DNA from: an uncultured Candidatus Saccharibacteria bacterium
Lineage (GTDB): Bacteria > Patescibacteriota > Minisyncoccia > UBA6257 > GWB1-50-10
Direction: 5' to 3'
DNA: 64,000 nt
Assembly: GCA_964365955.1 (NCBI GenBank)
Contig: CAYISA010000001.1
Coordinates: forward strand, 18,607-82,606
Under the pieces are notes generated by a model, which had not been told where the DNA came from, made no database searches, and saw nothing but the letters and a program-made list of their open reading frames with translations. Positions 14,897 through 49,957 of the stretch are shown here, piece after piece (position 1 is the first letter of the stretch; the number at the start of each line of letters is the position of its first letter). A program made the translations under genes and the position numbers.

Positions 14897-15580
14897 TTAG
14901 TGTTGTTCCATTCTGTCTTTCATGCGACCGATAAGCGTGCCGGCGTAATCCTTGCCGCCCAAACCAAACGCAATACCGCCCGCAATCGCGAACATCGCGA
15001 CAAACCCCGTCACTAAGGACTGGATAATCGCCACCGCAACGCCGAGCTGCGTAAGCATCGCAAGGAAACCAAAGACCACCACTGACCACCACGTGACCGA
15101 TCCCAAGAAATGCGCTCCGTGAAACTTTGTGCTTTTAACCGACGCCTGAACCAGGCGCTTCAAAAAGTTCGCGAATACGAATGCCGCGAGCATAATGAGC
15201 ACCGCTACAATCACATTCGGGATATAGATAAGCACTTCTTTAAGGAATGTTGAAAGCGAGTAGAACCCTAAAATGTCCGTCGCCGCAAGAAGGAAGACTA
15301 CCACCAGAAACCAATAAACAATTCTTCCAAAAAACTTGCCGCTGTTCAGATTCAGGCCCGCGCGATCAAAATATTCCTTTAGCCCTAAACTCATAAGCCC
15401 CTTGTCGAGTTTGATCAACGTGATCACTTTCTCTACAAGCGTCGCAAGCCCGCTCGCTACGATAAGACCCACAATAAGGACAATGAGCGCCCCAATAATG
15501 TTCCCGAGCGTCATAAAAAACCCTGTCCAGAGATTCTGGAGTGATGAAACCACTACCTGTGTCCAATCTTGAATAAGCAT
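14897..15580 (-). CDS. Multi-pass membrane protein with conserved-TM-helix repeats (MscS-associated type)
   Basis: Repeated hydrophobic segments such as GNIIGALIVLIVGLIVASG, resembling the conserved TM helix repeat found at MscS-like N-termini. Confidence 0.45.
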   Translation of the reverse strand: MLIQDWTQVVVSSLQNLWTGFFMTLGNIIGALIVLIVGLIVASGLATLVEKVITLIKLDKGLMSLGLKEYFDRAGLNLNSGKFFGRIVYWFLVVVFLLAATDILGFYSLSTFLKEVLIYIPNVIVAVLIMLAAFVFANFLKRLVQASVKSTKFHGAHFLGSVTWWSVVVFGFLAMLTQLGVAVAIIQSLVTGFVAMFAIAGGIAFGLGGKDYAGTLIGRMKDRMEQH

Positions 15581-15619
15581 GTTGAAATGATAAGCTGATT
15601 GAATTCTCGACCTTTTTAG

Positions 15620-32563: not shown

Positions 32564-32591
32564 TGGTGGACCCATGGAGAATCGAGCTCCA
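32564..32591 (-). other. Orphan tRNA 3' half (T-arm, acceptor 3' strand, ACCA) resembling the 3' end of the upstream tRNA-Ala
   Basis: The minus strand reads TGGAG-CTCGATT-CTCCA-TGGGTCC-A-CCA. tRNA-Ala ends GCGAG-TTCGATT-CTCGC-TAGGTCC-A. No matching 5' half was found. Confidence 0.5.
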
Positions 32592-32622
32592 GCCTCGGCA
32601 ACTTGCCCGCCCACCATTCTTG

Positions 32623-32693
32623 TGGACCTAGCGAGAATCGAACTCGCGTCTCCACAATGCGAATGTGGCGTCTTGCCACTGGACCATAGGCCC
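32623..32693 (-). tRNA. tRNA-Ala (anticodon CGC)
   Basis: Manual cloverleaf: acceptor GGGCCTA/TAGGTCC with G3:U70, anticodon loop TTCGCAT, T-arm GCGAG-TTCGATT-CTCGC, discriminator A. No encoded CCA. Confidence 0.8.
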
Positions 32694-32781
32694 GATAAAC
32701 AAGCTTATGGTGGGCGGGTAAAAATGCCGCGTAATACCACTTTACTATGGGCCCCAAAATCAATTTTCAAAATGTCTGAAT

Positions 32782-32901
32782 TGGTCGGGCTGCTGGGAAT
32801 CTTTCTCCCCCGTCACTATCGCTCCTCTTCCGAAACCCGCCACACCCGCTTTCTTCGTGCCCCGCACGCGCGGCCGTCGGCTTCGATTTCCATCTCCCAA
32901 A
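32782..32901 (-). ncRNA. tRNA-linked conserved structured element, copy E3 (unassigned family)
   Basis: Collinear conserved blocks shared with 42300-42411 and 43964-44071: TGG(G)AAWTYGAAG, a GC hairpin, GGTTTCGRAG(A)GGAG and GACGGGGGAGAAA. Ends in GATTCCCAGCAGCCCGACCA, a 1-mismatch copy of the tRNA-Pro 3' strand plus CCA. Confidence 0.5.
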
Positions 32902-42223: not shown

Positions 42224-42295
42224 TGCGGGGAAGAGTAACGGTTGCTCGTCAGGCTCATAACCTGAAGGTAGTGGGTTCAATTCCCACCCCCGCAA
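42224..42295 (+). tRNA. tRNA-Met (anticodon CAT), initiator-like
   Basis: Closely parallels E. coli tRNA-fMet as I recall it (xGCGGGG...GCTCGTCxGGCTCATAACCxGAAGGT...CCCCCGCAA). A11:U24 is present. It has U1:A72 and A8, and only two G:C pairs at 29-31/39-41. Confidence 0.7.
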
Positions 42296-42299
42296 CACA

Positions 42300-42411
42300 G
42301 GTGGGAATTGAAGTCGACCCGAGCGCTTGCGGGGCAAGAAAAAGTGAGGGCGACGGGTTTCGAAGGAGTCCCGCCGAAGCGGACGGGGGAGAAAAATTCC
42401 CACCCCCGCGA
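42300..42411 (+). ncRNA. tRNA-linked conserved structured element, copy E1 (unassigned family)
   Basis: The 5' arm GGTGGGAATT pairs with the 3' arm AATTCCCACC (10 bp). The core carries the conserved blocks shared with E2 and E3. It ends in CCCAC-CCCCGCG-A, a 1-mismatch copy of the upstream tRNA 3' strand. A 34-nt repeat at 42279-42312 and 42395-42428 flanks the core. Confidence 0.5.
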
Positions 42412-42433
42412 CACAGGTGGGAATTGAAATATT

Positions 42434-43297: not shown

Positions 43298-43815
43298 CCT
43301 ACTCGATTCCCGCTTACTCCCAACACCTGGATATTAAAGACAAAAAGTGGCGCCGCCGCTCCTGCGGAGTTGTCGCTTTCAAAATGGTACTGGATTTCTG
43401 GGAAAAACAAACATCCCCAACATTCCCAGAACTCTTGAAAAACGGACAGAAGATGAAAGCATACATTCGGGGCGTCGGGTGGAGCCATGCTGGTATTGCC
43501 AAACTTGCAAAAAAATACGGTTTTGCAGGAAAAAATTTTGATTGGTTCCTGAAAAAATCCGAATGGGCGTTCAAAAAAACCCGAATTTTTCTAAAAACCG
43601 GCCCCGTGATTGTATCGATCCATAAAGATCTGAATCCAAAGAAATCGGGGCATCTGGTGGTGGTTACTCGTATCACCGCGAGCCGCGTTTACTACCTGGA
43701 TCCCGACGCTTACGCGCGCGACAACATACGGCGCGTGGCTTCAAAAAAACGTTTTCTCGCGGGATGGAAGCGGCGCATGATCATTGTCCGCCCCCGCGGG
43801 TTGCATAGAAAATAA
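43294..43815 (+). CDS. Peptidase C39-like (papain-fold) protein, no signal peptide
   Basis: RSCGVVAFKMVLDFW (Cys) and GHLVVVTRI..YYLDP (His/Asp). ATGA overlap with the upstream gene. Confidence 0.65.
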   Translation: MTYSIPAYSQHLDIKDKKWRRRSCGVVAFKMVLDFWEKQTSPTFPELLKNGQKMKAYIRGVGWSHAGIAKLAKKYGFAGKNFDWFLKKSEWAFKKTRIFLKTGPVIVSIHKDLNPKKSGHLVVVTRITASRVYYLDPDAYARDNIRRVASKKRFLAGWKRRMIIVRPRGLHRK

Positions 43816-43841
43816 GGAATTGTTAAAGTGTAGTTGCTGTT

Positions 43842-43917
43842 GCGGGCGTGGTGTAGCCTGGTTTAACACGCCTCCCTGTCACGGAGGAGACCGTGGGTTC
43901 AAATCCCATCGCCCGCG
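43842..43917 (+). tRNA. tRNA-Asp (anticodon GTC)
   Basis: Acceptor GCGGGCG/CGCCCGC, discriminator G, anticodon arm CCTCC-CTGTCAC-GGAGG, T-arm GTGGG-TTCAAAT-CCCAT. No CCA. Confidence 0.85.
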
Positions 43918-43930
43918 CACGTGAAAAGAA
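43911..43930 (+). repeat. Direct repeat, left copy (tRNA-Asp acceptor 3' end plus trailer): GCCCGCGCACGTGAAAAGAA
   Basis: 19 of 20 nt identical to 47967-47986. Confidence 0.85.
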
Positions 43931-43959
43931 GTTACCCCTTGTGGGTAATTTCTTTTTAT
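43924..43959 (+). terminator. Terminator-like hairpin after tRNA-Asp
   Basis: 14-bp stem (AAAAGAAGTTACCC / GGGTAATTTCTTTT) with a 5-nt loop and a T-rich 3' side. Confidence 0.5.
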
Positions 43960-43963
43960 CCAC

Positions 43964-44071
43964 AATGGGATTTGAAGGGAACTCGCGCGCTCGCGAGCGA
44001 GATAAAACGCGAGTCCCTGGTTTCGGAGGAGGCGCAAATGCGGCGGGGGAGAAAAAATCCCATCGCCTGCG
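43964..44071 (+). ncRNA. tRNA-linked conserved structured element, copy E2 (unassigned family)
   Basis: The 5' arm ATGGGATTT pairs with the 3' arm AAATCCCAT. Contains hairpin CTCGCG-CGCT-CGCGAG and the blocks GGTTTCGGAGGAG and CGGGGGAGAAAAAA. Ends in CCCAT-CGCCTGC-G, a 1-mismatch copy of the tRNA-Asp 3' strand. Ends 9 nt before the RT stop codon. Confidence 0.5.
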
Positions 44072-44079
44072 CTGACAAA

Positions 44080-45144
44080 TTAGAAAATTACTTCTTTAAG
44101 TTTGTGCGTATCCCCGTGCTGCAATAACCCACGATAGGAGTTGATCGTCTCACGGCGCGGATATCCTTTCAGATTTCGCACTATCCTCCGTTTCGTGATG
44201 GTGCGAATCTGCCGATGATGCGGGAAATGAATCCATCCGAGAAAATCGACCCCGGAGGCATAAGACTCAATGGAAACTTTCTTCTCGTGTAACGAGAGGC
44301 GAAGGTGATCATGGAGGAATGCCCGAATCTTGAGTAATAACACCACGAGATAATCCTTGTTATCCGATAGGATCAGAAAATCATCGGCATAGCGAATATA
44401 ATATTTCCCCTTCAATTCCTGTTTTATAAACATATCAAATTCATGCATATAAATGTTTGCGAGGAGCTGGGATGTGAGATTCCCCAAGGGAAGTCCAAGG
44501 CCAGACCGCACCATATGAAAGCTTGAAATGACTTGTCCTAAGAGCCAAAGAATATCTCGATCTCCTATATTTCGTTCAATGATACGGGTCAAAATTTTTT
44601 GATCCACGCTTGCAAAGAATCTCTTAATATCACACTTTAGGACGTAGCAGGTGCGCGTATTATTCTTTGATACTTTGCGGGCAAATGAGTCGAAGCGTTC
44701 CAGAGCCTTATGAATCCCCTTGTCTTCTCGGCAGGCACAGGAATCGTAGATGAATCGCTCTTCAAAATAAGGATAGAGAGCCCGATAAAGTACGTGATGG
44801 AGAAAGCGGTCCCGCACAGAAGCCTTATGAATAGTCCGTCGTTTCGGGTCCGAGACGTGGAATTCGGAATAGGGTCCATGAACATATGTTTTGTAAAGAA
44901 GGTCTCGGTGAAGCGACACAAGATTGTCTGAGAGGCATGCCTCGAATCCCGCCACATCCTTTTTGTGTCGTTTACCGCAGAGAAACCGTTCCCACGTTGC
45001 AAGGAGATTTTCTATGGTTATGATATCTTGGTAAGTATGAATAATCGTAGTAATAGTGCTGTACCCCCCCGCACAAGGGAAACTCCGCTTGTACTTTTGA
45101 AGGTAAAAGAAACATACCGAACGTGGCATACCCACCTCGCGCAT
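44080..45144 (-). CDS. Diversity-generating retroelement reverse transcriptase
   Basis: RT motifs are present, including the DGR-typical LPLGNLTSQLLANIYM (xGxxxSQ) and YIRYADDFLIL. The N-terminus IENLLATWERFLCGKRHKKDV parallels Bordetella Brt WENLLDAYRK. Alternative start at ATG 45129. Confidence 0.9.
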   Translation of the reverse strand: MREVGMPRSVCFFYLQKYKRSFPCAGGYSTITTIIHTYQDIITIENLLATWERFLCGKRHKKDVAGFEACLSDNLVSLHRDLLYKTYVHGPYSEFHVSDPKRRTIHKASVRDRFLHHVLYRALYPYFEERFIYDSCACREDKGIHKALERFDSFARKVSKNNTRTCYVLKCDIKRFFASVDQKILTRIIERNIGDRDILWLLGQVISSFHMVRSGLGLPLGNLTSQLLANIYMHEFDMFIKQELKGKYYIRYADDFLILSDNKDYLVVLLLKIRAFLHDHLRLSLHEKKVSIESYASGVDFLGWIHFPHHRQIRTITKRRIVRNLKGYPRRETINSYRGLLQHGDTHKLKEVIF

Positions 45145-45435
45145 ATTTCTCGCATTGATCGGAATACGATAGGAATTCGTATTGACGAGACGTTCCTTTC
45201 TCTCTTGGAGCTTACGTTCCGAGCGTGTTTTGCGGCGGATAAATTTGAGAAGCTATCCATGGTGTCAAATGCTATTGCGAAATCTGACATCCTCAAATTC
45301 TTCCTGCAACTTGCATGGGAGGGAAAGACACTGGATCACGCGCTCTACGGAAAACTGCTTCTCGATTTAGATGAAATCGGCCGGATGCTCGGAGGGTGGA
45401 AACGAACCTTGTCTAGCAAAACTCCCGCGAAATAG
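45037..45435 (+). CDS. avd: Avd-like four-helix-bundle accessory protein
   Basis: ETYRTWHTHLAHISRIDRNTIGIRIDETFLSLLELTFRA...LDEIGRMLGGWKRTL matches the four-helix-bundle / S23-IVS family used as the DGR accessory variability determinant. Start uncertain (ATG 45037 or TTG 45097; the listed ORF starts at 44965). Confidence 0.75.
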   Translation: MNNRSNSAVPPRTRETPLVLLKVKETYRTWHTHLAHISRIDRNTIGIRIDETFLSLLELTFRACFAADKFEKLSMVSNAIAKSDILKFFLQLAWEGKTLDHALYGKLLLDLDEIGRMLGGWKRTLSSKTPAK

Positions 45436-45455
45436 CGGGAGAAATCATATGCGTA

Positions 45456-45574
45456 GCAGAAACAGAGCACGCAGTTGTCAGAATTCCAGTCATTCTCGAA
45501 GTTGCCGAGGTTGAACTTGTAGTCACCGTCCGAGTTGCGGTTCACGTTCGGCACCCTGTGGTTACCGTCGGCGT
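45456..45574 (-). repeat. DGR template repeat (TR)
   Basis: 119 bp homologous to both VRs. In coding sense it encodes DGNHRVPNVNRNSDGDYKFNLGNFENDWNSDNCVLCFC, with nine Asn (AAC/AAT) codons. Every internal difference from the VRs is at a TR adenine (T on the + strand). Confidence 0.9.
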
Positions 45575-45904
45575 GTCGTCATGGTATATACGACGCATCA
45601 TCCAGTCCACCGGAGAGAACGCCTGTCCTCCCCTGCATTTCATTCGGAGTCTTTGAATACTCCCGAATGCATCGTACCGACGGATATGATTTTTTCATGA
45701 GGGATGGCGCGCGCGCATAAGGCGTACCCGATGCGTTCCTGGCCTATTTTCGCTCACGGGAATTCGATGACATGAAGCCGTAACCGCATGTTCGAATCCA
45801 ATTCCGTCGTTAGTATATATAAAAACCCCCTCGTTTGCACGAGAGGGTCGAATCTAAGGAACTAATCGGACAAGAACTTATCCAATCGTCCGAGTGTCTG
45901 AGTA

Positions 45905-46573
45905 CTACTCACCGTCGCAGAAACAGAGCACGCAGTAGTCAGAACCCCAGTCACGCTCGAAGTCGCCGAGGCTGAACTCGCAGTCACCGACCGAGTAGCG
46001 GAACACGCGCGGCACCCTGTGGTCACCGCCGGCGTCAACCCAGAGAGCGTTCTTCTCGTCGAAGGAGACGTAGAATTTTCCTTTCGGAAGTTCATCTTTC
46101 TTCTCCTGATAGACGAGGGAGGCACCCTGAGCACCGACGAGAATCGCGTTCTGAGACCGCAAAAGGTTCATGTGATCTTCGGAGGTCACGCTACCCTTCT
46201 TGATTCCGAAGACTTTGACCTTGTAGGTCTTCCCGGGAACCAGTTGGGTGGTCGCCTTGGCGAAGTGTGAGTCCGTGATGTCGGTGTTGTAATAGTAGAA
46301 GCCCTTGCGGTACTTCTGTTCGAAGGTCGCAAGCTGGGTTCCATGGACATAGTCCTTGGGAACCGTAAGCGCGAACTCTTTGAGGTGCTCGTAGCGCGGA
46401 TCGATGAGGTTGGCCCCGTCAAACTTTCCCTCAATCGCATTTTGAAGATGCAGTTTGAGGAGATGCGGATTGAAGGGGTACCCACTCGGTTGGCGGAGTT
46501 GACGGGCGATTTTAAAAATCTGCCCGGTAATCGACTCGTATAAGTCGCCTGCGACAATCGGTTTCGTTGCCAT
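45905..46573 (-). CDS. DGR variable protein 1 (target gene, VR at the C-terminus)
   Basis: Start set to ATG 46573, preceded by AAGGA. The C-terminus ..GGDHRVPRVFRYSVGDCEFSLGDFERDWGSDYCVLCFCDGE carries VR1. Paralog of 46832-47683. Confidence 0.85.
   Translation of the reverse strand: MATKPIVAGDLYESITGQIFKIARQLRQPSGYPFNPHLLKLHLQNAIEGKFDGANLIDPRYEHLKEFALTVPKDYVHGTQLATFEQKYRKGFYYYNTDITDSHFAKATTQLVPGKTYKVKVFGIKKGSVTSEDHMNLLRSQNAILVGAQGASLVYQEKKDELPKGKFYVSFDEKNALWVDAGGDHRVPRVFRYSVGDCEFSLGDFERDWGSDYCVLCFCDGE
45917..46035 (-). repeat. DGR variable repeat VR1
   Basis: Offset of +461 from the TR. 17 mismatches, all at TR + strand T (coding-strand A). Confidence 0.9.
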
Positions 46574-46831
46574 GACGATATTCCTTTCTGTTAATGAACG
46601 CTTGGAGACTGCCAAGTCAGGTGTAAGGGTATCTTACGGTCTAAAGAGTAGTATAGTAATTATATATTGTCAAGCATAAAGATTCGAATCAACGGGCCTA
46701 TCCCCTACCAAAACCCCTACAAATGGAGGGTAAATCGATGTATAAAAAATGCCTCTCGTTTGCACGAGAGGCATGAATCTAAGGGTCGAAAAACCCTAAG
46801 GGCATACATAATGGACGTAAGCGCCAAAGAA

Positions 46832-47683
46832 TTATTCGCCGTCGCAGAAACAGAGCACGCAGTCGGCAGAATTCCAGCCACCCTCGAAGTAGCCGAGGTT
46901 GAACTCGTAGTCACCGACCGAGAGGCGGTACACGTGCGGCACCCTGTGGTCACCGTCGGGGTCTTTCCAGAGCGCTTCCTTCTTATCAAAGGAGAGGGTC
47001 CACTTGCCGACCGGAAACTCGTCTTTCTTGAGTTGCCAGGCAAGCGAGAGACCATGGGCTCCGACAAAGATCGCTTTCTCGCGGGCATACACTCCCATCA
47101 ATTCCTCCGAGGTGGATCGAGAACCGATGTTCACGATCTTGACCTTGTAAGTTTTGCCGGGGACAAGCTTCTGCGTCGCGTTCCGGAAATTCTTGTCGGT
47201 CACGTCATCGTTGAAGGAGTAGAAATCTCTGAGCTTCAACGAGTCGAGCTGTCTCTCGTGCCGATAGTTCTTCGGAACCGTGAGAGAGAAGGTCTTCAAG
47301 ACCATGAATCTCTGGAGGAGAAGCTGCTTTCGCGCTTTCTCCTGCCAGTCCTTCGGACCGTTCTTCACAATATACTCGAGATCATCCGTCTGAAATGCGC
47401 CGGAGGCAAACATCTTGCCCCAATGCGCGTCGAAATTCTGAAGCTTCTTTGCGATCTCTTCGGGAACCTTGTGGAGATTCCAGAAATCCCGGACTTCGTG
47501 CTCGCGGCCTTTGCCGTCCAGTTCGAAGAATAGATCGATGGCACCATGACCCAAGACATCGTTATCACGACACTCCGTGAATTTCTTTTTCCCCTCTTCG
47601 GAGAAAACCTCTTTGTCGGTGAGATAGAAAAGCACGGAGGTACCATTCTTCTCTACCTTTTTCCATGATATGAAATCGCACAT
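46832..47683 (-). CDS. DGR variable protein 2 (target gene, VR at the C-terminus)
   Basis: Start set to ATG 47683, preceded by AGGAAGGAG. The C-terminus ..DGDHRVPHVYRLSVGDYEFNLGYFEGGWNSADCVLCFCDGE carries VR2. Confidence 0.85.
   Translation of the reverse strand: MCDFISWKKVEKNGTSVLFYLTDKEVFSEEGKKKFTECRDNDVLGHGAIDLFFELDGKGREHEVRDFWNLHKVPEEIAKKLQNFDAHWGKMFASGAFQTDDLEYIVKNGPKDWQEKARKQLLLQRFMVLKTFSLTVPKNYRHERQLDSLKLRDFYSFNDDVTDKNFRNATQKLVPGKTYKVKIVNIGSRSTSEELMGVYAREKAIFVGAHGLSLAWQLKKDEFPVGKWTLSFDKKEALWKDPDGDHRVPHVYRLSVGDYEFNLGYFEGGWNSADCVLCFCDGE
46844..46962 (-). repeat. DGR variable repeat VR2
   Basis: Offset of +1388 from the TR. 13 mismatches at TR + strand T, plus one C/G difference at the distal edge (45572 vs 46960). 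Confidence 0.9.
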
Positions 47684-47966
47684 ATGTGACTCCTTCCTAG
47701 GAATTGTGAGGGAAACAGTGTATTTAGTTCGTAAGGTTTCTGACACCAGGTTAGCATATTGTTTCTATTTTGTCAAATCTATGTAGCAAAAGCATATAGA
47801 ACAGAGGTATTTAGCTGCTCTAGTATTCCTTACTATCTCTGTAAAATCTTTGGAAATAACGGAAAATGTGGTAGGAATAATCAAGTTAATACAATCGCTC
47901 GTAGGTCTGGAATATAAATTGATGTATCATTTCTCCTCTCAAATGCGGTTTTAACATCGTCCACTA

Positions 47967-47986
47967 GCCCGCGCAAGTGAAAAGAA
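47967..47986 (+). repeat. Direct repeat, right copy: GCCCGCGCAAGTGAAAAGAA
   Basis: 19 of 20 nt identical to 43911-43930. Preceded by TCCACTA, a degenerate match to the tRNA-Asp T-stem 3' strand TCCCATC. Confidence 0.85.
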
Positions 47987-47989
47987 ATA

Positions 47990-48016
47990 AAAATCCCCGC
48001 GTAAAACGCGGAGATT
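47990..48016 (-). terminator. Rho-independent terminator of the gatCA operon
   Basis: AATCCCCGCG-TAAAA-CGCGGAGATT hairpin, followed on the minus strand by a T-rich run. Confidence 0.55.
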
Positions 48017-48185
48017 ATTTCCGTTTGGGACAGTTTTTCTTATGGATTTTTTCGAATTCAAAACGGATATGTTTATTGCAGTAAACACAGTAGGAACAGG
48101 GACAGCTATGCTTGGCGCCTCCTAAATGACACCGGCATCTGCATTCTTCAGAGGAATGCGGAGGTATCACCTTCATTCTTTTCAT
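48015..48185 (-). CDS. Small Cys/His-rich putative zinc-binding protein (56 aa)
   Basis: Below the ORF-track size cutoff. My translation is MKRMKVIPPHSSEECRCRCHLGGAKHSCPCSYCVYCNKHIRFEFEKIHKKNCPKRK. AGGA lies 9 nt upstream of the ATG. Sits between gatA and the terminator. Confidence 0.4.
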   Translation of the reverse strand: MKRMKVIPPHSSEECRCRCHLGGAKHSCPCSYCVYCNKHIRFEFEKIHKKNCPKRK

Positions 48186-48248
48186 GCGGTTTTTCCTGTC
48201 TGAAATTTTGAATAACGCTATCTAGATAATAGCACGTCAGAGAAAAAT

Positions 48249-49670
48249 TTACCGATTCTTTTCGTAATACATTCCCAAGCTTAAAATATCCGCCTCGTGA
48301 AAATGCTTTCCGATCAGTTGAAATCCTACGGGCAATTTCTTGTCTTCTATTTTGTAGTCGCGTACGGGAATCGAAATCGCGGGAACGCCTGCAAGGTTAG
48401 CGGGGATCGTAAAAACATCGGAAAGATACATTGCCATAGGATCATCTATTTTTTCGCCGATTTTAAATGCGGTCGTGGGGGTTGTGGGAGCAAATAAAAT
48501 GTCCACCTCCTTAAACGCTCTATCAAAATCTTCCTTAATCAGGTGGCGCACTTTTTGTGCCTTAGCATAATACGCATCATAATACCCCGATGAAAGAACA
48601 AACGTCCCCAGTAAAATCCTGCGCCGAGCCTCCGTGCCGAATCCAAGCCCTCGATTTTTGAAATAAAGATCGCGGAGCGATGGAGAAGATTCCGGCGTCT
48701 CTTTGATGCGCGCGTAACGAATTCCATCAAATCGCGCTAGATTGGCGCTCACCTCCGCCGGCATAATAATGTAATAGACCGAAAGCGCGTATTTGGTGTT
48801 CGGCAAACTTATTTCTTTCATTTTGAATCCCTTGCGCTCAAATACCTTGCGAGCTACTTCAATCTCTTTTTCCACGCGGCTTTCCAAACCGCCTGTAAAA
48901 TATTCTTTCGGAATTCCGATCGTGAGTTGTTTGGGATCTTTTTTCTCTATGTCAGAAAGTGAAAAATCGAAATCCACGCTGGTGGAATCGTACTCATCTT
49001 TCCCGCGTATTGCGTCAAAAAGAATCGCGGCGTCTTCCACGGTTTTGGTGAAAGGACCGATCTGGTCAAGACTGGACGCCATTGCGATAAGCCCAAAACG
49101 TGAAACGGCACCATAGGTAGGTTTGAGTCCTACTACGCCGCAAAAGGCGGCCGGCTGGCGAATGGACCCGCCCGTATCGGAGCCGAAAGCCCCGAGTGCC
49201 ATACCAGCCGCGACAGCTACCGCCGAACCTCCGGAAGAACCACCGGGCGTGCGTTTCAAATCGTACGGATTTTTTGTTACCTGAAATGCCGAGTTTTCGG
49301 TAGAGGACCCCATTGCGAATTCATCCAAATTGGTTTTCCCCAAAATCACCGCGCCCGCATGATTCAATTTCTGTACCACAGTTGCGTCATAACTCGCTTC
49401 ATAAGACTCTAAAATCTTGGAGGCCGCTGTTGTGCGCATTCCCAAAAAAAGCATGTTGTCTTTGATCGCGAGCGGCACTCCTGCGAGCGTGCCCGATGGA
49501 GCTTCCGCCTTCTTCGGCGTCTCACTTTCAAAAACAGTTAGATACGCTTGTAAATCCACATCTTTTGTCCGGATGGCATTCAAAAACTCTTCGGTAATTT
49601 CTTGTGCCGAGAATGTTTTTGCTTTCAATCCTTCCAGGAAACTTTTGATCGTGAGGGTAGAAATATCCAT
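48249..49670 (-). CDS. gatA: Glutamyl-tRNA(Gln)/aspartyl-tRNA(Asn) amidotransferase subunit A
   Basis: Amidase signature GGSSGGSAVAVAAGM. Lies downstream of gatC. Confidence 0.92.
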   Translation of the reverse strand: MDISTLTIKSFLEGLKAKTFSAQEITEEFLNAIRTKDVDLQAYLTVFESETPKKAEAPSGTLAGVPLAIKDNMLFLGMRTTAASKILESYEASYDATVVQKLNHAGAVILGKTNLDEFAMGSSTENSAFQVTKNPYDLKRTPGGSSGGSAVAVAAGMALGAFGSDTGGSIRQPAAFCGVVGLKPTYGAVSRFGLIAMASSLDQIGPFTKTVEDAAILFDAIRGKDEYDSTSVDFDFSLSDIEKKDPKQLTIGIPKEYFTGGLESRVEKEIEVARKVFERKGFKMKEISLPNTKYALSVYYIIMPAEVSANLARFDGIRYARIKETPESSPSLRDLYFKNRGLGFGTEARRRILLGTFVLSSGYYDAYYAKAQKVRHLIKEDFDRAFKEVDILFAPTTPTTAFKIGEKIDDPMAMYLSDVFTIPANLAGVPAISIPVRDYKIEDKKLPVGFQLIGKHFHEADILSLGMYYEKNR

Positions 49671-49675
49671 ACGCG

Positions 49676-49957
49676 CTATTCGAAAACCGGAGGCGTTTTT
49701 AGGAAACCTTCCGCCCGCTCGGAAAAATCTTCAGTTGCCTTTTCGCCTTCGATTTGTTCGCCATTATCGGCACGAAATACATTCTCATTCAATGTGCCGC
49801 CCACCATTGGCTCAATGCCGGCTGTATCGACTTCCTTCAATTCTTCAAAATGCTCCAAAATTTTCTCGAGGTCGCCGCGCAAGCGCCCTTCTTCCTCTTT
49901 AGAAAGTTCGATGCGCGCCAACTCTGCCAAATTATGGATCTCTTTTTCTGAAATCAT
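49676..49957 (-). CDS. gatC: Amidotransferase subunit C
   Basis: 93 aa; ISEKEIHNLAELARIELSKEE..FEELKEVDT pattern. Confidence 0.85.
   Translation of the reverse strand: MISEKEIHNLAELARIELSKEEEGRLRGDLEKILEHFEELKEVDTAGIEPMVGGTLNENVFRADNGEQIEGEKATEDFSERAEGFLKTPPVFE

What the first reader, a model, noticed from the sequence alone, without database searches (positions are those of the whole stretch)
43901..47990. The DGR lies in a ~4-kb segment bracketed by a direct repeat of the tRNA-Asp 3' end (att-like), with no integrase
GCCCGCGCA(C/A)GTGAAAAGAA occurs at 43911-43930 (the last 7 nt of tRNA-Asp plus its trailer) and again at 47967-47986, with 19 of 20 nt identical. The right copy is preceded by TCCACTA, a degenerate version of the tRNA T-stem strand TCCCATC. 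It is followed directly by the terminator hairpin of the convergent gatCA operon. This is the arrangement expected if tRNA-Asp and gatCA originally shared that terminator and a 4.04-kb cassette inserted at the tRNA 3' end. The cassette carries E2, RT, avd, TR, two targets and an AT-rich 220-bp tail. It also supplies a new 14-bp-stem hairpin immediately after the left repeat. No recombinase is encoded inside, so it would have to be a mobilised or decayed element.
Basis: partly seen in the sequence, partly recalled or inferred. Interest (0 to 1): 0.65.

Follow-up and report, generated by a model that had tools for sequence, protein, structure and literature searches.

The report
DGR island lodged among tRNA-end copies
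A 3.9-kb protein-diversifying retroelement (DGR) cassette with no recombinase of its own was inserted, in this groundwater Patescibacteria lineage only, between two partial copies of the tRNA-Asp 3' end, and those copies belong to an undescribed family of small structured elements that trail several tRNA genes here.

Summary
The repeat is real. Window 43904-43930 matches 47960-47986 at 23/27, with a 19/20 core, and it occurs only twice in 64 kb.

The DGR is canonical: RT, bAvd, a TR and two VRs with adenine-specific mismatches.

The insertion is shown. A sister genome (GatA 91% identical, L094) reads tRNA-Asp, hairpin, a ~120-nt element, a tRNA-end copy, then directly the gatCA terminator, small ORF and gatA, with no DGR. 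Two further relatives with the same synteny on both sides also lack it.

Copy B belongs to a family of structured units: an inverted tRNA-end copy, two or three hairpins, then a direct copy of the neighbouring tRNA's 3' end. Three of the seven tRNAs in the window carry one. Covariation is strong and Rfam has no match.

No integrase lies in the cassette, and none resembling the one Patescibacteria integrase used as probe was found in the window. Related DGRs sit at other loci, away from any tRNA.

Best reading: an integrase-less island that recombined into an array of tRNA-end copies. The mechanism is not resolved. Interest is moderate to high, mainly because of the unit family.

The parts
43842..43918 (+). 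tRNA-Asp (GTC), intact
   Evidence: ARAGORN; Rfam tRNA 65.4 bits. The 3' part is 100% identical in L094 and the whole gene in L221.
43904..43930 (+). Copy A: T-stem 3' strand, acceptor 3' strand and a 12-nt trailer (ACGTGAAAAGAA)
43921..43957 (.). 17-bp hairpin after the tRNA. On the minus strand it is followed by a U-tract, so it is terminator-like behind RT.
   Evidence: Fold; minus-strand terminator-like site 43948-43932. Every related unit has a hairpin at this place.
43965..43976 (+). T': inverted copy of the tRNA T-loop and T-stem 3' strand (ATGGGATTTGAA)
   Evidence: It forms helix P0 with copy B. It can also pair with copy A (-34.8 kcal/mol, z -4.8).
43958..44076 (+). Type-1 tRNA-3'-linked structured unit (T', P1/P1a hairpin, GGTTTC, GGAGGAG, P2 hairpin, GGGGGAGAAAAA, copy B)
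   Evidence: CM R1 110.7 bits, E 6e-26; covariation. Strand not settled.
44055..44072 (+). Copy B: AAATCCCATCGCCTGCGC, 17/18 to the tRNA from T-loop to 3' end. Left boundary of the lineage-specific DNA.
   Evidence: Its counterpart in L094 abuts the terminator directly.
44080..45144 (-). DGR reverse transcriptase
   Evidence: PF00078 2.5e-23; phrog_1423; 60-74% identical to thousands of RTs, most of the named ones from Patescibacteria.
45085..45435 (+). bAvd accessory protein. Start codon uncertain. Opposite strand to RT, overlapping the RT start.
   Evidence: PF22296 (below its cutoff); phrog_3206 'Avd protein of DGR'; 79% identical to the L089 Avd.
45452..45574 (-). Template repeat (TR)
45905..46573 (-). 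Target gene 1, with VR1 at 45913-46035
   Evidence: 17 of 18 TR/VR mismatches are at TR adenines; homologous to the L089 target.
46832..47686 (-). Target gene 2 (paralogue), with VR2 at 46840-46962
   Evidence: 13 of 15 mismatches are at TR adenines; repeat family D2.
47687..47959 (.). AT-rich tail. Its last ~90 nt (47877-47959) continue into copy C and are shared at 79% with sister contig L093, where a different gene lies to the left.
   Evidence: Not a recognisable type-1 unit.
47960..47986 (+). Copy C: degenerate tRNA 3' end plus trailer (TCCACTAGCCCGCGCAAGTGAAAAGAA). Right boundary of the lineage-specific DNA.
   Evidence: Homology with the empty-site contig L094 resumes at 47991.
47992..48016 (-). 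Terminator hairpin of the gatCA / small-ORF transcript. Its U-tract overlaps the trailer of copy C.
   Evidence: conserved in L094.
48015..48185 (-). 56-aa Cys-rich ORF downstream of gatA (flank, not part of the island)
   Evidence: conserved in L094. L221/L222 carry an 82-aa ORF in the same position (homology not tested). No Pfam or PHROG hit.
48249..49670 (-). gatA (flank)
   Evidence: PF01425 3e-144.

Best explanation
In this lineage tRNA-Asp is followed by a hairpin and a ~120-nt structured unit. The unit ends in a second copy of the tRNA's T-loop-to-3'-end sequence, and in the ancestral state that copy abutted the bidirectional terminator shared with the convergent gatCA operon.

A ~3.9-kb passenger segment then became lodged in or next to that second copy. 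It comprises RT, avd, TR, two targets and an AT-rich tail. The second copy is left as a left part (B, 44055-44072) and a right part with the original trailer (C, 47960-47986). The two parts overlap by about 8-12 nt (CATCG..CCYGCGC).

The segment encodes no recombinase. It most likely arrived by recombination at the tRNA-end copy, either site-specific by an enzyme supplied in trans or by short homology. This resembles integrase-less islands that accrete in tandem at tRNA att sites.

The trailer shared by A and C fits the general habit of these units: the unit-borne and the displaced copies of the tRNA end often stay identical for 8-20 nt past the tRNA.

Shown: the repeats, the insertion polymorphism and its boundaries, the DGR, the unit family and its base-pairing. 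Inferred: the direction of the event (gain), and the recombination mechanism.
For: **Empty site.**
- L094 (gatA 86% nt, 91% aa identical) reads tRNA-Asp 3' part (36/36), hairpin, T', X, CCCCATCGACCGCGCA, AAACAAATCCCCGCATAAAATGCGGGG, small ORF, gatA.
- BLAST homology to the window covers 47991-49818 and 43883-43918 only.
- L095/L096 and L221/L222 keep ligA-gatCA on one side and C39-NlpC-pheST on the other. They hold only tRNA-Asp plus two or more tandem units in between.

**Synteny.** The arrangement gatCA -> <- tRNA-Asp is conserved in at least 13 of the related genomes scanned.

**Three copies of the tRNA end.**

**Unit family.**
- There are 12 CM hits with E < 1e-15. Each of those inspected lies directly 3' of a tRNA or of another unit.
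- Three are in the window, behind tRNA-Pro, tRNA-Met and tRNA-Asp. Each carries the 3' end of its own tRNA.
- Of base-pair cells, 93.4% are paired against 73.5% in shuffles (0/500).
- 19 of 29 pairs show compensatory change, and slid controls score about 0.1 against 0.58.
- Identity blocks run past the tRNA end in L010, L011, L015, L023 and the window's Met unit.

**DGR.** It is canonical.

**Cassette history.**
- The closest RTs (up to 74% identical) lie next to uvrB, T2SSE or a PALP gene in other Patescibacteria contigs, with no tRNA nearby.
- DNA homology between cassettes is confined to target..TR..avd..RT. The cassette has therefore changed loci.

**No recombinase.** None is in the cassette, and the window has no tblastn match to the integrase of locus L092.
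Against: - No recombinase, excision product or circular junction has been seen.
- All nine contigs that carry the identical GatA also carry the DGR or are cut short. Four contigs from four samples are 100% identical across 43801-48100. Polymorphism therefore exists only between species-level relatives.
- Copies B and C share only about 8-12 nt, and C needs an 8-nt indel or four mismatches in the T-stem part.
- A and C match better (19/20, including 10 nt of trailer) than B and C. This would also fit a one-step insertion of the whole 4.06-kb A-to-C segment.
- The last ~100 nt left of and including C are shared with sister contig L093, where the neighbouring gene is a core TrmB regulator. The tail may therefore predate the DGR at this site.
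- Only one other cargo-bearing pair of copies was found: a GIY-YIG gene in L018.
Confidence: 0.5

Rival explanations
1. One-step integration. A 4.06-kb composite element integrated at the tRNA-Asp 3' end itself. It consisted of hairpin, structured unit, copy B, DGR and tail. A and C would be attL and attR, and the structured unit would be the element's left arm. The unit in L094 would then be an independent insertion.
For: - A and C are the best-matching pair: 19/20 including 10 nt beyond the tRNA, and 23/27 overall.
- The 3' arm of the left hairpin pairs with the duplicated trailer.
- Unit order differs between L095 and L221. The best-matching units (79%) are second in L095 and first in L221, which shows that units turn over at this site.
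- The window's unit is only 65% identical to L094's, against 85% for the flanks.
Against: - It requires the unit in L094 to be an independent insertion at the same site.
- 65% identity is about what neutral divergence would give at 86% gatA nucleotide identity, so the two units may be orthologous.
- A 10-nt match in a lineage-specific trailer would need the element to have cycled through this same site.
- No integrase was found.
Confidence: 0.2
2. The repeats had nothing to do with the DGR's arrival. A tandem array of units already existed (copy, hairpin, T', X, repeated as in L095, L221, L011 and the window's tRNA-Met). The DGR replaced most of the second unit by illegitimate recombination. 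The A/C similarity is simply unit-to-unit similarity.
For: - Arrays of two or more units occur at the same site in L095, L221 and L219. Tandem duplicates that include the trailer occur in L011 and behind the window's tRNA-Met.
- The tail holds CAAATGCGG..CATCG..CCGCGC in the same order as the 3' part of the window's unit.
- Related DGR cassettes at other loci show no flanking repeats.
Against: - The covariance model finds no unit in 47687-47990, even with filters off and E up to 10.
- The closest empty site (L094) has a single unit, not two.
Confidence: 0.15
3. The DGR is ancestral at this site, and the relatives lost it by deletion between the direct copies.
For: Direct repeats favour precise deletion. 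L093 shows that this region rearranges, with 47977-48241 deleted and TrmB joined on.
Against: - Three independent relatives at 70-91% GatA identity lack it, as do more distant genomes with the same gatA/tRNA-Asp arrangement.
- The nearest RT relatives lie at other loci.
Confidence: 0.07
4. A decayed prophage or integrative element that lost its integrase and other genes, leaving only the DGR.
For: DGRs are common in temperate phages, and tRNA 3' ends are classic phage att sites (established knowledge). Phage RTs do match.
Against: - Phage RTs are at most 39% identical, against 60-74% for RTs on Patescibacteria and other metagenome contigs.
- No phage family hit exists apart from RT and Avd.
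- The RT stop lies 7 nt from copy B, and the flanks are housekeeping genes.
Confidence: 0.03

Closest known systems
Genomic islands and prophages integrated at tRNA 3' ends by tyrosine integrases (Reiter et al. 1989; Williams 2002, sublocation classes; cited from my own knowledge)
   Same: - An intact tRNA at one end.
- Direct repeats that start in the T-loop or T-stem and run to or past the tRNA 3' end.
- An empty site in relatives.
- Cargo unrelated to the flanks.
   Different: - No integrase in or beside the insert.
- Only 3.9 kb.
- Three copies rather than two.
- The junction used is a non-tRNA copy.
- The right copy is degenerate.
CIMEs and tandem accretion of integrase-less elements at att sites (Pavlovic 2004 and Bellanger 2011, Streptococcus thermophilus ICESt1/3; cited from my own knowledge)
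   Same: - Elements flanked by att-like repeats that lack recombination genes.
- A tandem layout of the attL-attI-attR type (A-B-C).
- Presumed mobilisation in trans.
   Different: - No cognate ICE or integrase is known here.
- The inner element is a 120-nt structured non-coding unit, not a decayed island.
- Patescibacteria have no described conjugative elements of this kind.
Chromosomal DGRs of the Candidate Phyla Radiation (Paul et al. 2017, cited from my own knowledge; RT relatives)
   Same: RT, Avd, TR and a C-terminal VR with adenine mutagenesis. RT is 60-74% identical to thousands of RTs, most of the named ones from Patescibacteria.
   Different: This cassette has a defined insertion site with an empty counterpart. 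The three relatives examined have no tRNA or flanking repeats.
Group I introns in tRNA-Asp/Asn genes of Patescibacteria (Nakagawa et al. 2026, PMC13011429)
   Same: Structured RNA elements associated with tRNA-Asp genes in the same phylum.
   Different: Those introns interrupt the anticodon loop at position 35/36 and self-splice. The units here lie behind an intact tRNA, measure about 120-160 nt, and gave no Rfam match, the group I intron family included.
Small non-autonomous structured repeats (MITE or REP/BIME-like)
   Same: Short, non-coding, hairpin-rich, multi-copy and tandem-prone.
   Different: They always lie at a tRNA 3' end, and each copy carries the sequence of its own tRNA. Conserved purine loops and covarying helices point to a specific fold.

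Membership tests
Diversity-generating retroelement | Reverse transcriptase of the DGR clade | tested here: met
   PF00078 2.5e-23; phrog_1423 5.5e-103.
Diversity-generating retroelement | TR/VR pair with mismatches confined to TR adenines, and VR at the 3' end of a target gene | tested here: met
   17/18 and 13/15 mismatches are at TR adenines. The VRs lie at the C-termini of ORFs 45905-46573 and 46832-47686.
Diversity-generating retroelement | Accessory protein Avd | tested here: met
   PF22296 bAvd E 3.7e-8 (34.3 bits, below the 40-bit cutoff); phrog_3206 'Avd protein of DGR' 2.5e-13.
Integrase-mediated tRNA-targeting integrative element | Direct repeats derived from the tRNA 3' end flank the insert, with the tRNA left intact | tested here: met
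   Copies A, B and C; intact tRNA.
Integrase-mediated tRNA-targeting integrative element | Empty site in related genomes | tested here: met
   L094, L095/L096 and L221/L222.
Integrase-mediated tRNA-targeting integrative element | Integrase gene within the element, next to an att site | tested here: not met
   No recombinase domain in any cassette ORF. No tblastn match in the 64-kb window to the tyrosine recombinase of L092 (limited sensitivity).
Integrase-mediated tRNA-targeting integrative element | Excision, circular form or regenerated attB within a population | not testable with these tools
   Reads are not available. All same-species contigs carry the insert.
CIME-like integrase-less element (cis-mobilisable) | Flanked by att-type repeats and lacking recombination genes | tested here: met
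CIME-like integrase-less element (cis-mobilisable) | A cognate autonomous element with the same att site and an integrase exists in the same or related genomes | tested here: inconclusive
   None appeared in the 64-kb window, in about 90 related loci read by eye or Pfam, or in viral contig scans. Whole genomes were not available.
Any curated RNA family (Rfam 15), for the structured unit | Match at or near a family's gathering score | tested here: not met
   Only the tRNA passes. No hit for type-1 or type-2 units at E up to 5-10.
Structured RNA or ssDNA element, for the tRNA-3'-linked unit | Conserved helices supported by compensatory changes beyond controls | tested here: met
   RNAalifold on a MAFFT alignment: 19 of 29 pairs compensatory. 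Count on 12 units: 93.4% paired against 73.5% in shuffles (0/500), score 0.579 against about 0.1 for slid controls. Strand undecided: 12 G.U against 10 A.C.

The most novel reading that the evidence does not exclude
The tRNA-3'-linked structured units may be a new class of small, non-autonomous elements that target tRNA T-loops. Each carries a replacement tRNA 3' end plus a hairpin, and keeps an inverted 'guide' copy (T') that pairs with the displaced tRNA end. They would spread and stack in tandem by a nucleic-acid-guided or trans-supplied recombination step. The displaced tRNA-end copy at their far edge would then serve as a landing pad that can capture cargo. Here the cargo is a whole DGR, which would give Patescibacteria DGRs a route between loci and genomes.
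Probability: 0.22. Interest if true: 0.85.

Novelty: new variant of a known kind. Interest (0 to 1): 0.62.

Why it matters
DGRs are very abundant in Patescibacteria, yet how their cassettes move between chromosomal sites is not known. This locus offers a cassette with base-level insertion boundaries and a matching empty site in a sister genome. That makes the question testable with reads from the same aquifer.

The repeats that bound the cassette are not a one-off scar. They belong to a covarying, uncurated family of ~120-160-nt elements that trail tRNA-Pro, tRNA-Met and tRNA-Asp in this window, and tRNA-Asp or tRNA-Met in related genomes. Each element copies the 3' end of its own tRNA.

If the elements are mobile, they are a new kind of tRNA-targeting element. 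If they serve the host, they are a new tRNA-linked RNA. They also produce partial tRNA 3' ends that could be mistaken for integration scars.

Tried and rejected
- **Chance repeat.** Rejected: 0 of 100 shuffles.
- **Copy B as a pseudo-tRNA or tmRNA.** ARAGORN and Rfam find nothing there. Reading the minus strand as a tRNA-like or tmRNA-like gene did not give proper T or acceptor arms.
- **A known RNA family for the units.** No Rfam hit.
- **Tail plus copy C as a decayed unit.** The covariance model finds nothing there, even with filters off. Only a 9-mer and the order of short motifs are shared.
- **Strand of the unit from wobble pairs.** 12 G.U against 10 A.C, so undecided.
- **Integrase in the window.** tblastn with the L092 tyrosine recombinase gave nothing. 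Only the ORFs flanking the cassette were run through Pfam.
- **Phage origin.** Phage RTs are at most 39% identical, and only RT and Avd hit PHROGs.
- **Viral contig scans** for type-2 and type-1 motifs. Three chance hits fell in regions with no tRNA or hairpin, and the other scan found nothing.
- **The one metagenome scan** used a pattern that proved unspecific. None of 80 loci had a tRNA upstream, so it was wasted.
- **Logan contig breaks inside tRNA-Asp** (window 43869-43898). They are explained by the tRNA being identical in co-occurring relatives, so they are not evidence of excision.
- **L093's TrmB gene as 'alternative cargo'.** Rejected. TrmB is a conserved core gene that lies elsewhere in the L094-type genome, so L093 is a rearrangement or a chimeric contig.
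- **The L221/L222 length difference between the tRNA-Met genes.** It is a 100-N scaffold gap, not a unit polymorphism.
- **The 68-aa ORF 43921-44127 across the unit.** It is not conserved; L050 has a 2-codon ORF there.

Full report
**Observation**

The window holds tRNA-Asp(GTC) at 43842-43918 (Rfam). The 20-mer GCCCGCGCACGTGAAAAGAA at 43911-43930 recurs at 47967-47986 with one mismatch. Without gaps the match is 23/27 over 43904-43930 and 47960-47986. With up to three mismatches it occurs nowhere else in 64 kb. The expected count is 0.02, and 0 of 100 shuffles gave two matches.

The left copy is followed by a 17-bp hairpin. The right copy is followed by a hairpin at 47992-48016 that scores as a minus-strand terminator. 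A 56-aa Cys-rich ORF and gatA lie beyond it.

Between the copies lie RT (PF00078), bAvd, a 123-nt TR and two targets. 17 of 18 and 13 of 15 TR/VR mismatches fall on TR adenines. No ORF in the segment has a recombinase domain.

- A third direct copy, B (44055-44072, 17/18 to the T-loop-to-3'-end of the tRNA), which ends 7 nt from the RT stop.
- An inverted copy, T' (43965-43976).

**Source and relatives**

Identical proteins place the window on a 98-kb contig from Hainich groundwater. It also matches an NCBI Patescibacteria MAG. The best GatA matches among species representatives are 66-69% identical. They are a Jorgensenbacteria genome and an unclassified Hainich Patescibacteria MAG.

The convergent arrangement gatCA -> <- tRNA-Asp is conserved in at least 13 of the related genomes scanned. 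The distance between the two varies from 0.25 to 6.2 kb.

**Insertion polymorphism**

Three independent relatives keep the flanks and lack the DGR.

- **L094.** Its gatA is 86% nt and 91% aa identical. It reads tRNA-Asp 3' part (36/36 identical), hairpin, T'-like segment, ~80 nt of structured sequence, CCCCATCGACCGCGCA. It then runs directly into AAACAAATCCCCGCATAAAATGCGGGG, the small ORF and gatA. BLAST homology to the window covers 47991-49818 and 43883-43918 only.
- **L095/L096** (GatA 73%) and **L221/L222** (70%). They keep ligA-gatCA on one side and C39-NlpC-pheST on the other. The interval holds only tRNA-Asp and two or more tandem units.

The ~3.9 kb from just after copy B to copy C is therefore lineage-specific DNA. 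Gain in the window's lineage is the parsimonious reading.

All nine contigs that carry the identical GatA also carry the insert or are cut short. Four contigs from four samples are 100% identical over 43801-48100, VRs included. The insert is thus fixed in this population, with no consensus-level VR variation.

**What the copies are**

Copy B is not an isolated scar. Behind tRNA-Asp in the window, L010, L011, L016, L050, L094, L095, L219 and L221, the same layout recurs. It also recurs behind tRNA-Met and tRNA-Pro in the window and in other loci. The layout is:
1. tRNA.
2. Hairpin.
3. Inverted copy of the tRNA's T-loop and T-stem (T').
4. A structured stretch of 70-120 nt.
5. A direct copy of that genome's own tRNA from the T-loop to the 3' end, often running 8-20 nt into the trailer.

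A covariance model built from nine 'type-1' units finds 12 hits with E < 1e-15. Each of those inspected lies directly behind a tRNA or behind another unit. Three are in the window, at 32779-32900 (-), 42294-42415 (+) and 43958-44076 (+).

The consensus fold has these parts:
- Helix P0, formed by T' and the direct copy.
- A two-tier hairpin, P1/P1a.
- A short helix P3 with perfect covariation (TTGC/GCAA, TTGT/ACAA, TTCT/AGAA, TTTC/GAAA, CTTC/GAAG).
- A variable hairpin, P2.
- Two conserved purine loops, GRAGGAG and GGGGGAG.

On 12 units, 93.4% of base-pair cells are paired against 73.5% in shuffles (0/500). 19 of 29 pairs show compensatory change. The covariation score is 0.579 against about 0.1 for slid controls.

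That alignment was fitted to the model, but RNAalifold on a plain MAFFT alignment gave the same helices. The strand cannot be settled from wobble pairs.

A second family ('type 2': L011, L013, L015, L016, L023) has a different interior and the same T'-to-copy closure. Rfam has no match for either family.

Units stack in tandem (L011, L095, L221, L219, window tRNA-Met). The best-matching pair of units (79%) is second in L095 and first in L221. In L018 a GIY-YIG gene sits between the tRNA and its downstream copy.

**Reading the A/B/C layout**

Relative to L094, the left flank of the empty junction corresponds to the sequence left of B. The right flank corresponds to the sequence right of C.

The simplest account is that the unit's direct copy originally abutted the terminator. 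The DGR segment was then inserted in or beside it. B is the left part, and C is the right part with the original trailer.

The A/C identity beyond the tRNA (A[C/A]GTGAAAAGAA) is then the usual extension of the identity block between a unit's tRNA-proximal and distal copies. On the minus strand the same 10 nt form the U-tracts of the two terminator-like hairpins, behind RT and behind gatCA. This may help both copies persist.

A/C is the better-matching pair. The window's unit is only 65% identical to L094's, against 85% for the flanks. However, 65% is about what unconstrained sequence would show at this divergence.

**Where the cassette came from**

The RT is 60-74% identical to thousands of RTs, most of the named ones from Patescibacteria. 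It is at most 39% identical to phage RTs.

The three closest cassettes on long contigs lie next to uvrB, T2SSE and a PALP gene. None has a tRNA or flanking repeats. DNA homology to the nearest cassette (L089) spans target 1 through RT (window ~44105-46405, 71%), plus a 55-nt motif upstream of the target.

Cassettes of this clade have therefore changed loci during evolution. The tRNA-end junctions are particular to this case.

**Sister contig L093**

L093 (GatA 91%) shares ~100 nt with the window: the last ~90 nt of the tail plus part of copy C (47877-47976, 79%). It then joins gatA directly, lacking 47977-48241. To the left it carries a TrmB regulator.

TrmB is a conserved core gene that lies elsewhere in the L094-type genome. 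L093 therefore reflects a rearrangement, or a chimeric contig, with a breakpoint in the tail. It is not alternative cargo. It does suggest that the tail-C junction is older than the split between the window's lineage and L093.

**Mechanism and verdict**

Shown:
- The repeats.
- A canonical DGR.
- Lineage-specific insertion with defined boundaries.
- No recombinase in the insert.
- A covarying, tRNA-linked unit family that supplies the copies.

Inferred:
- That recombination at a tRNA-end copy placed the cassette there.
- That some enzyme acting in trans, or short homology, did it.

The closest known analogy is tandem accretion of integrase-less elements at tRNA att sites. Membership in the integrase-borne island family fails on the integrase criterion.

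It was right about the insertion and about the role of tRNA-end copies. It was wrong about the empty-site sequence. It also did not see that such copies are a common, structured motif behind tRNAs in this lineage.

Noticed in passing
window 32779-32900 (-), 42294-42415 (+), 43958-44076 (+): Three copies of an uncurated ~120-nt structured element lie directly behind tRNA-Pro, tRNA-Met and tRNA-Asp. Each ends in a copy of its own tRNA's 3' end (for Pro, 32800-32783 is 17/18). Covariation is strong and there is no Rfam match.
   Followed up: partly
L011:8808-8945, L013:4222-4363, L015:9976-10128, L016:9482-9643, L023:12882-13022 (all minus strand): A second 'type-2' family has the same closure (inverted copy to direct copy of the tRNA 3' end). 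Its interior differs: GGAAGGGGTCGG-hairpin-CCGTGTAGGAA, then a hairpin with loop CCGAGGG. It follows tRNA-Asp and tRNA-Met in other Patescibacteria.
   Followed up: partly
window 42279-42428: Behind tRNA-Met the repeat covers 33 nt (ATTCCCACCCCCGC.ACACAGGTGGGAATTGAA). The tRNA end plus its inverted copy therefore occur twice, flanking the structured part. The tRNA T-arm and T' form a 13-bp hairpin.
   Followed up: partly
window 46583-46674; L089 6219-6306 and 6410-6462: A ~55-nt motif just upstream of DGR target gene 1 is 91% identical to a sequence duplicated upstream of the target in the nearest related DGR. The coding parts are only ~71% identical. It may be a conserved 5' UTR or promoter element of DGR targets in this clade.
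   Followed up: no
window 45824-45849 and 46749-46774: Near-identical 11-bp-stem hairpins with U-tracts follow both target genes (repeat family D4). One gives a sub-threshold Rfam mmgR/suhB match (34.5 bits; gathering score 41). They are probably terminators or the DGR-associated hairpins downstream of VRs.
   Followed up: no
window 45085-45144: avd lies on the strand opposite to RT, TR and the targets, and overlaps the RT start. The same layout occurs in L089 and L092. The TR-RT transcript would therefore be antisense to avd.
   Followed up: no
window 44073-43932 (minus strand): No terminator lies between the RT stop (44080) and the structured unit. The first minus-strand terminator-like site is 43948-43932. 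The RT mRNA would therefore carry the antisense of the whole unit as its 3' UTR.
   Followed up: no
window 48015-48185 (-): A 56-aa Cys-rich ORF (CxC..CPC..CxxC) lies downstream of gatA. It is conserved in L094, and L221/L222 carry an 82-aa ORF in the same position. It is deleted in L093. No Pfam or PHROG match.
   Followed up: no
L018 about 15170-15600 (minus strand): An 86-aa GIY-YIG gene (PF01541, 9e-18) sits between tRNA-Asp and a 16-nt downstream copy of its 3' end. Besides the DGR, it is the only cargo found between such copies.
   Followed up: partly
L093 2737-3754; L223 6020-6868: In a sister contig the tail and copy C are joined to a core TrmB regulator gene that lies elsewhere in another sister genome. 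The terminator and small ORF are deleted. This is a rearrangement, or an assembly chimera, with a breakpoint in the tail.
   Followed up: partly
L002, L003, L006-L008 (window 43869-43898): Logan contigs from three runs all break inside tRNA-Asp. The likely reason is that the 77-nt tRNA is identical in co-occurring relatives (L221). It could still hide alternative junctions.
   Followed up: no
window 32585-32656 (-), behind tRNA-Ala: A 20-nt sequence with 3 mismatches to the tRNA-Ala 3' end starts 37 nt downstream of that tRNA. It may be a further degenerate copy.
   Followed up: no
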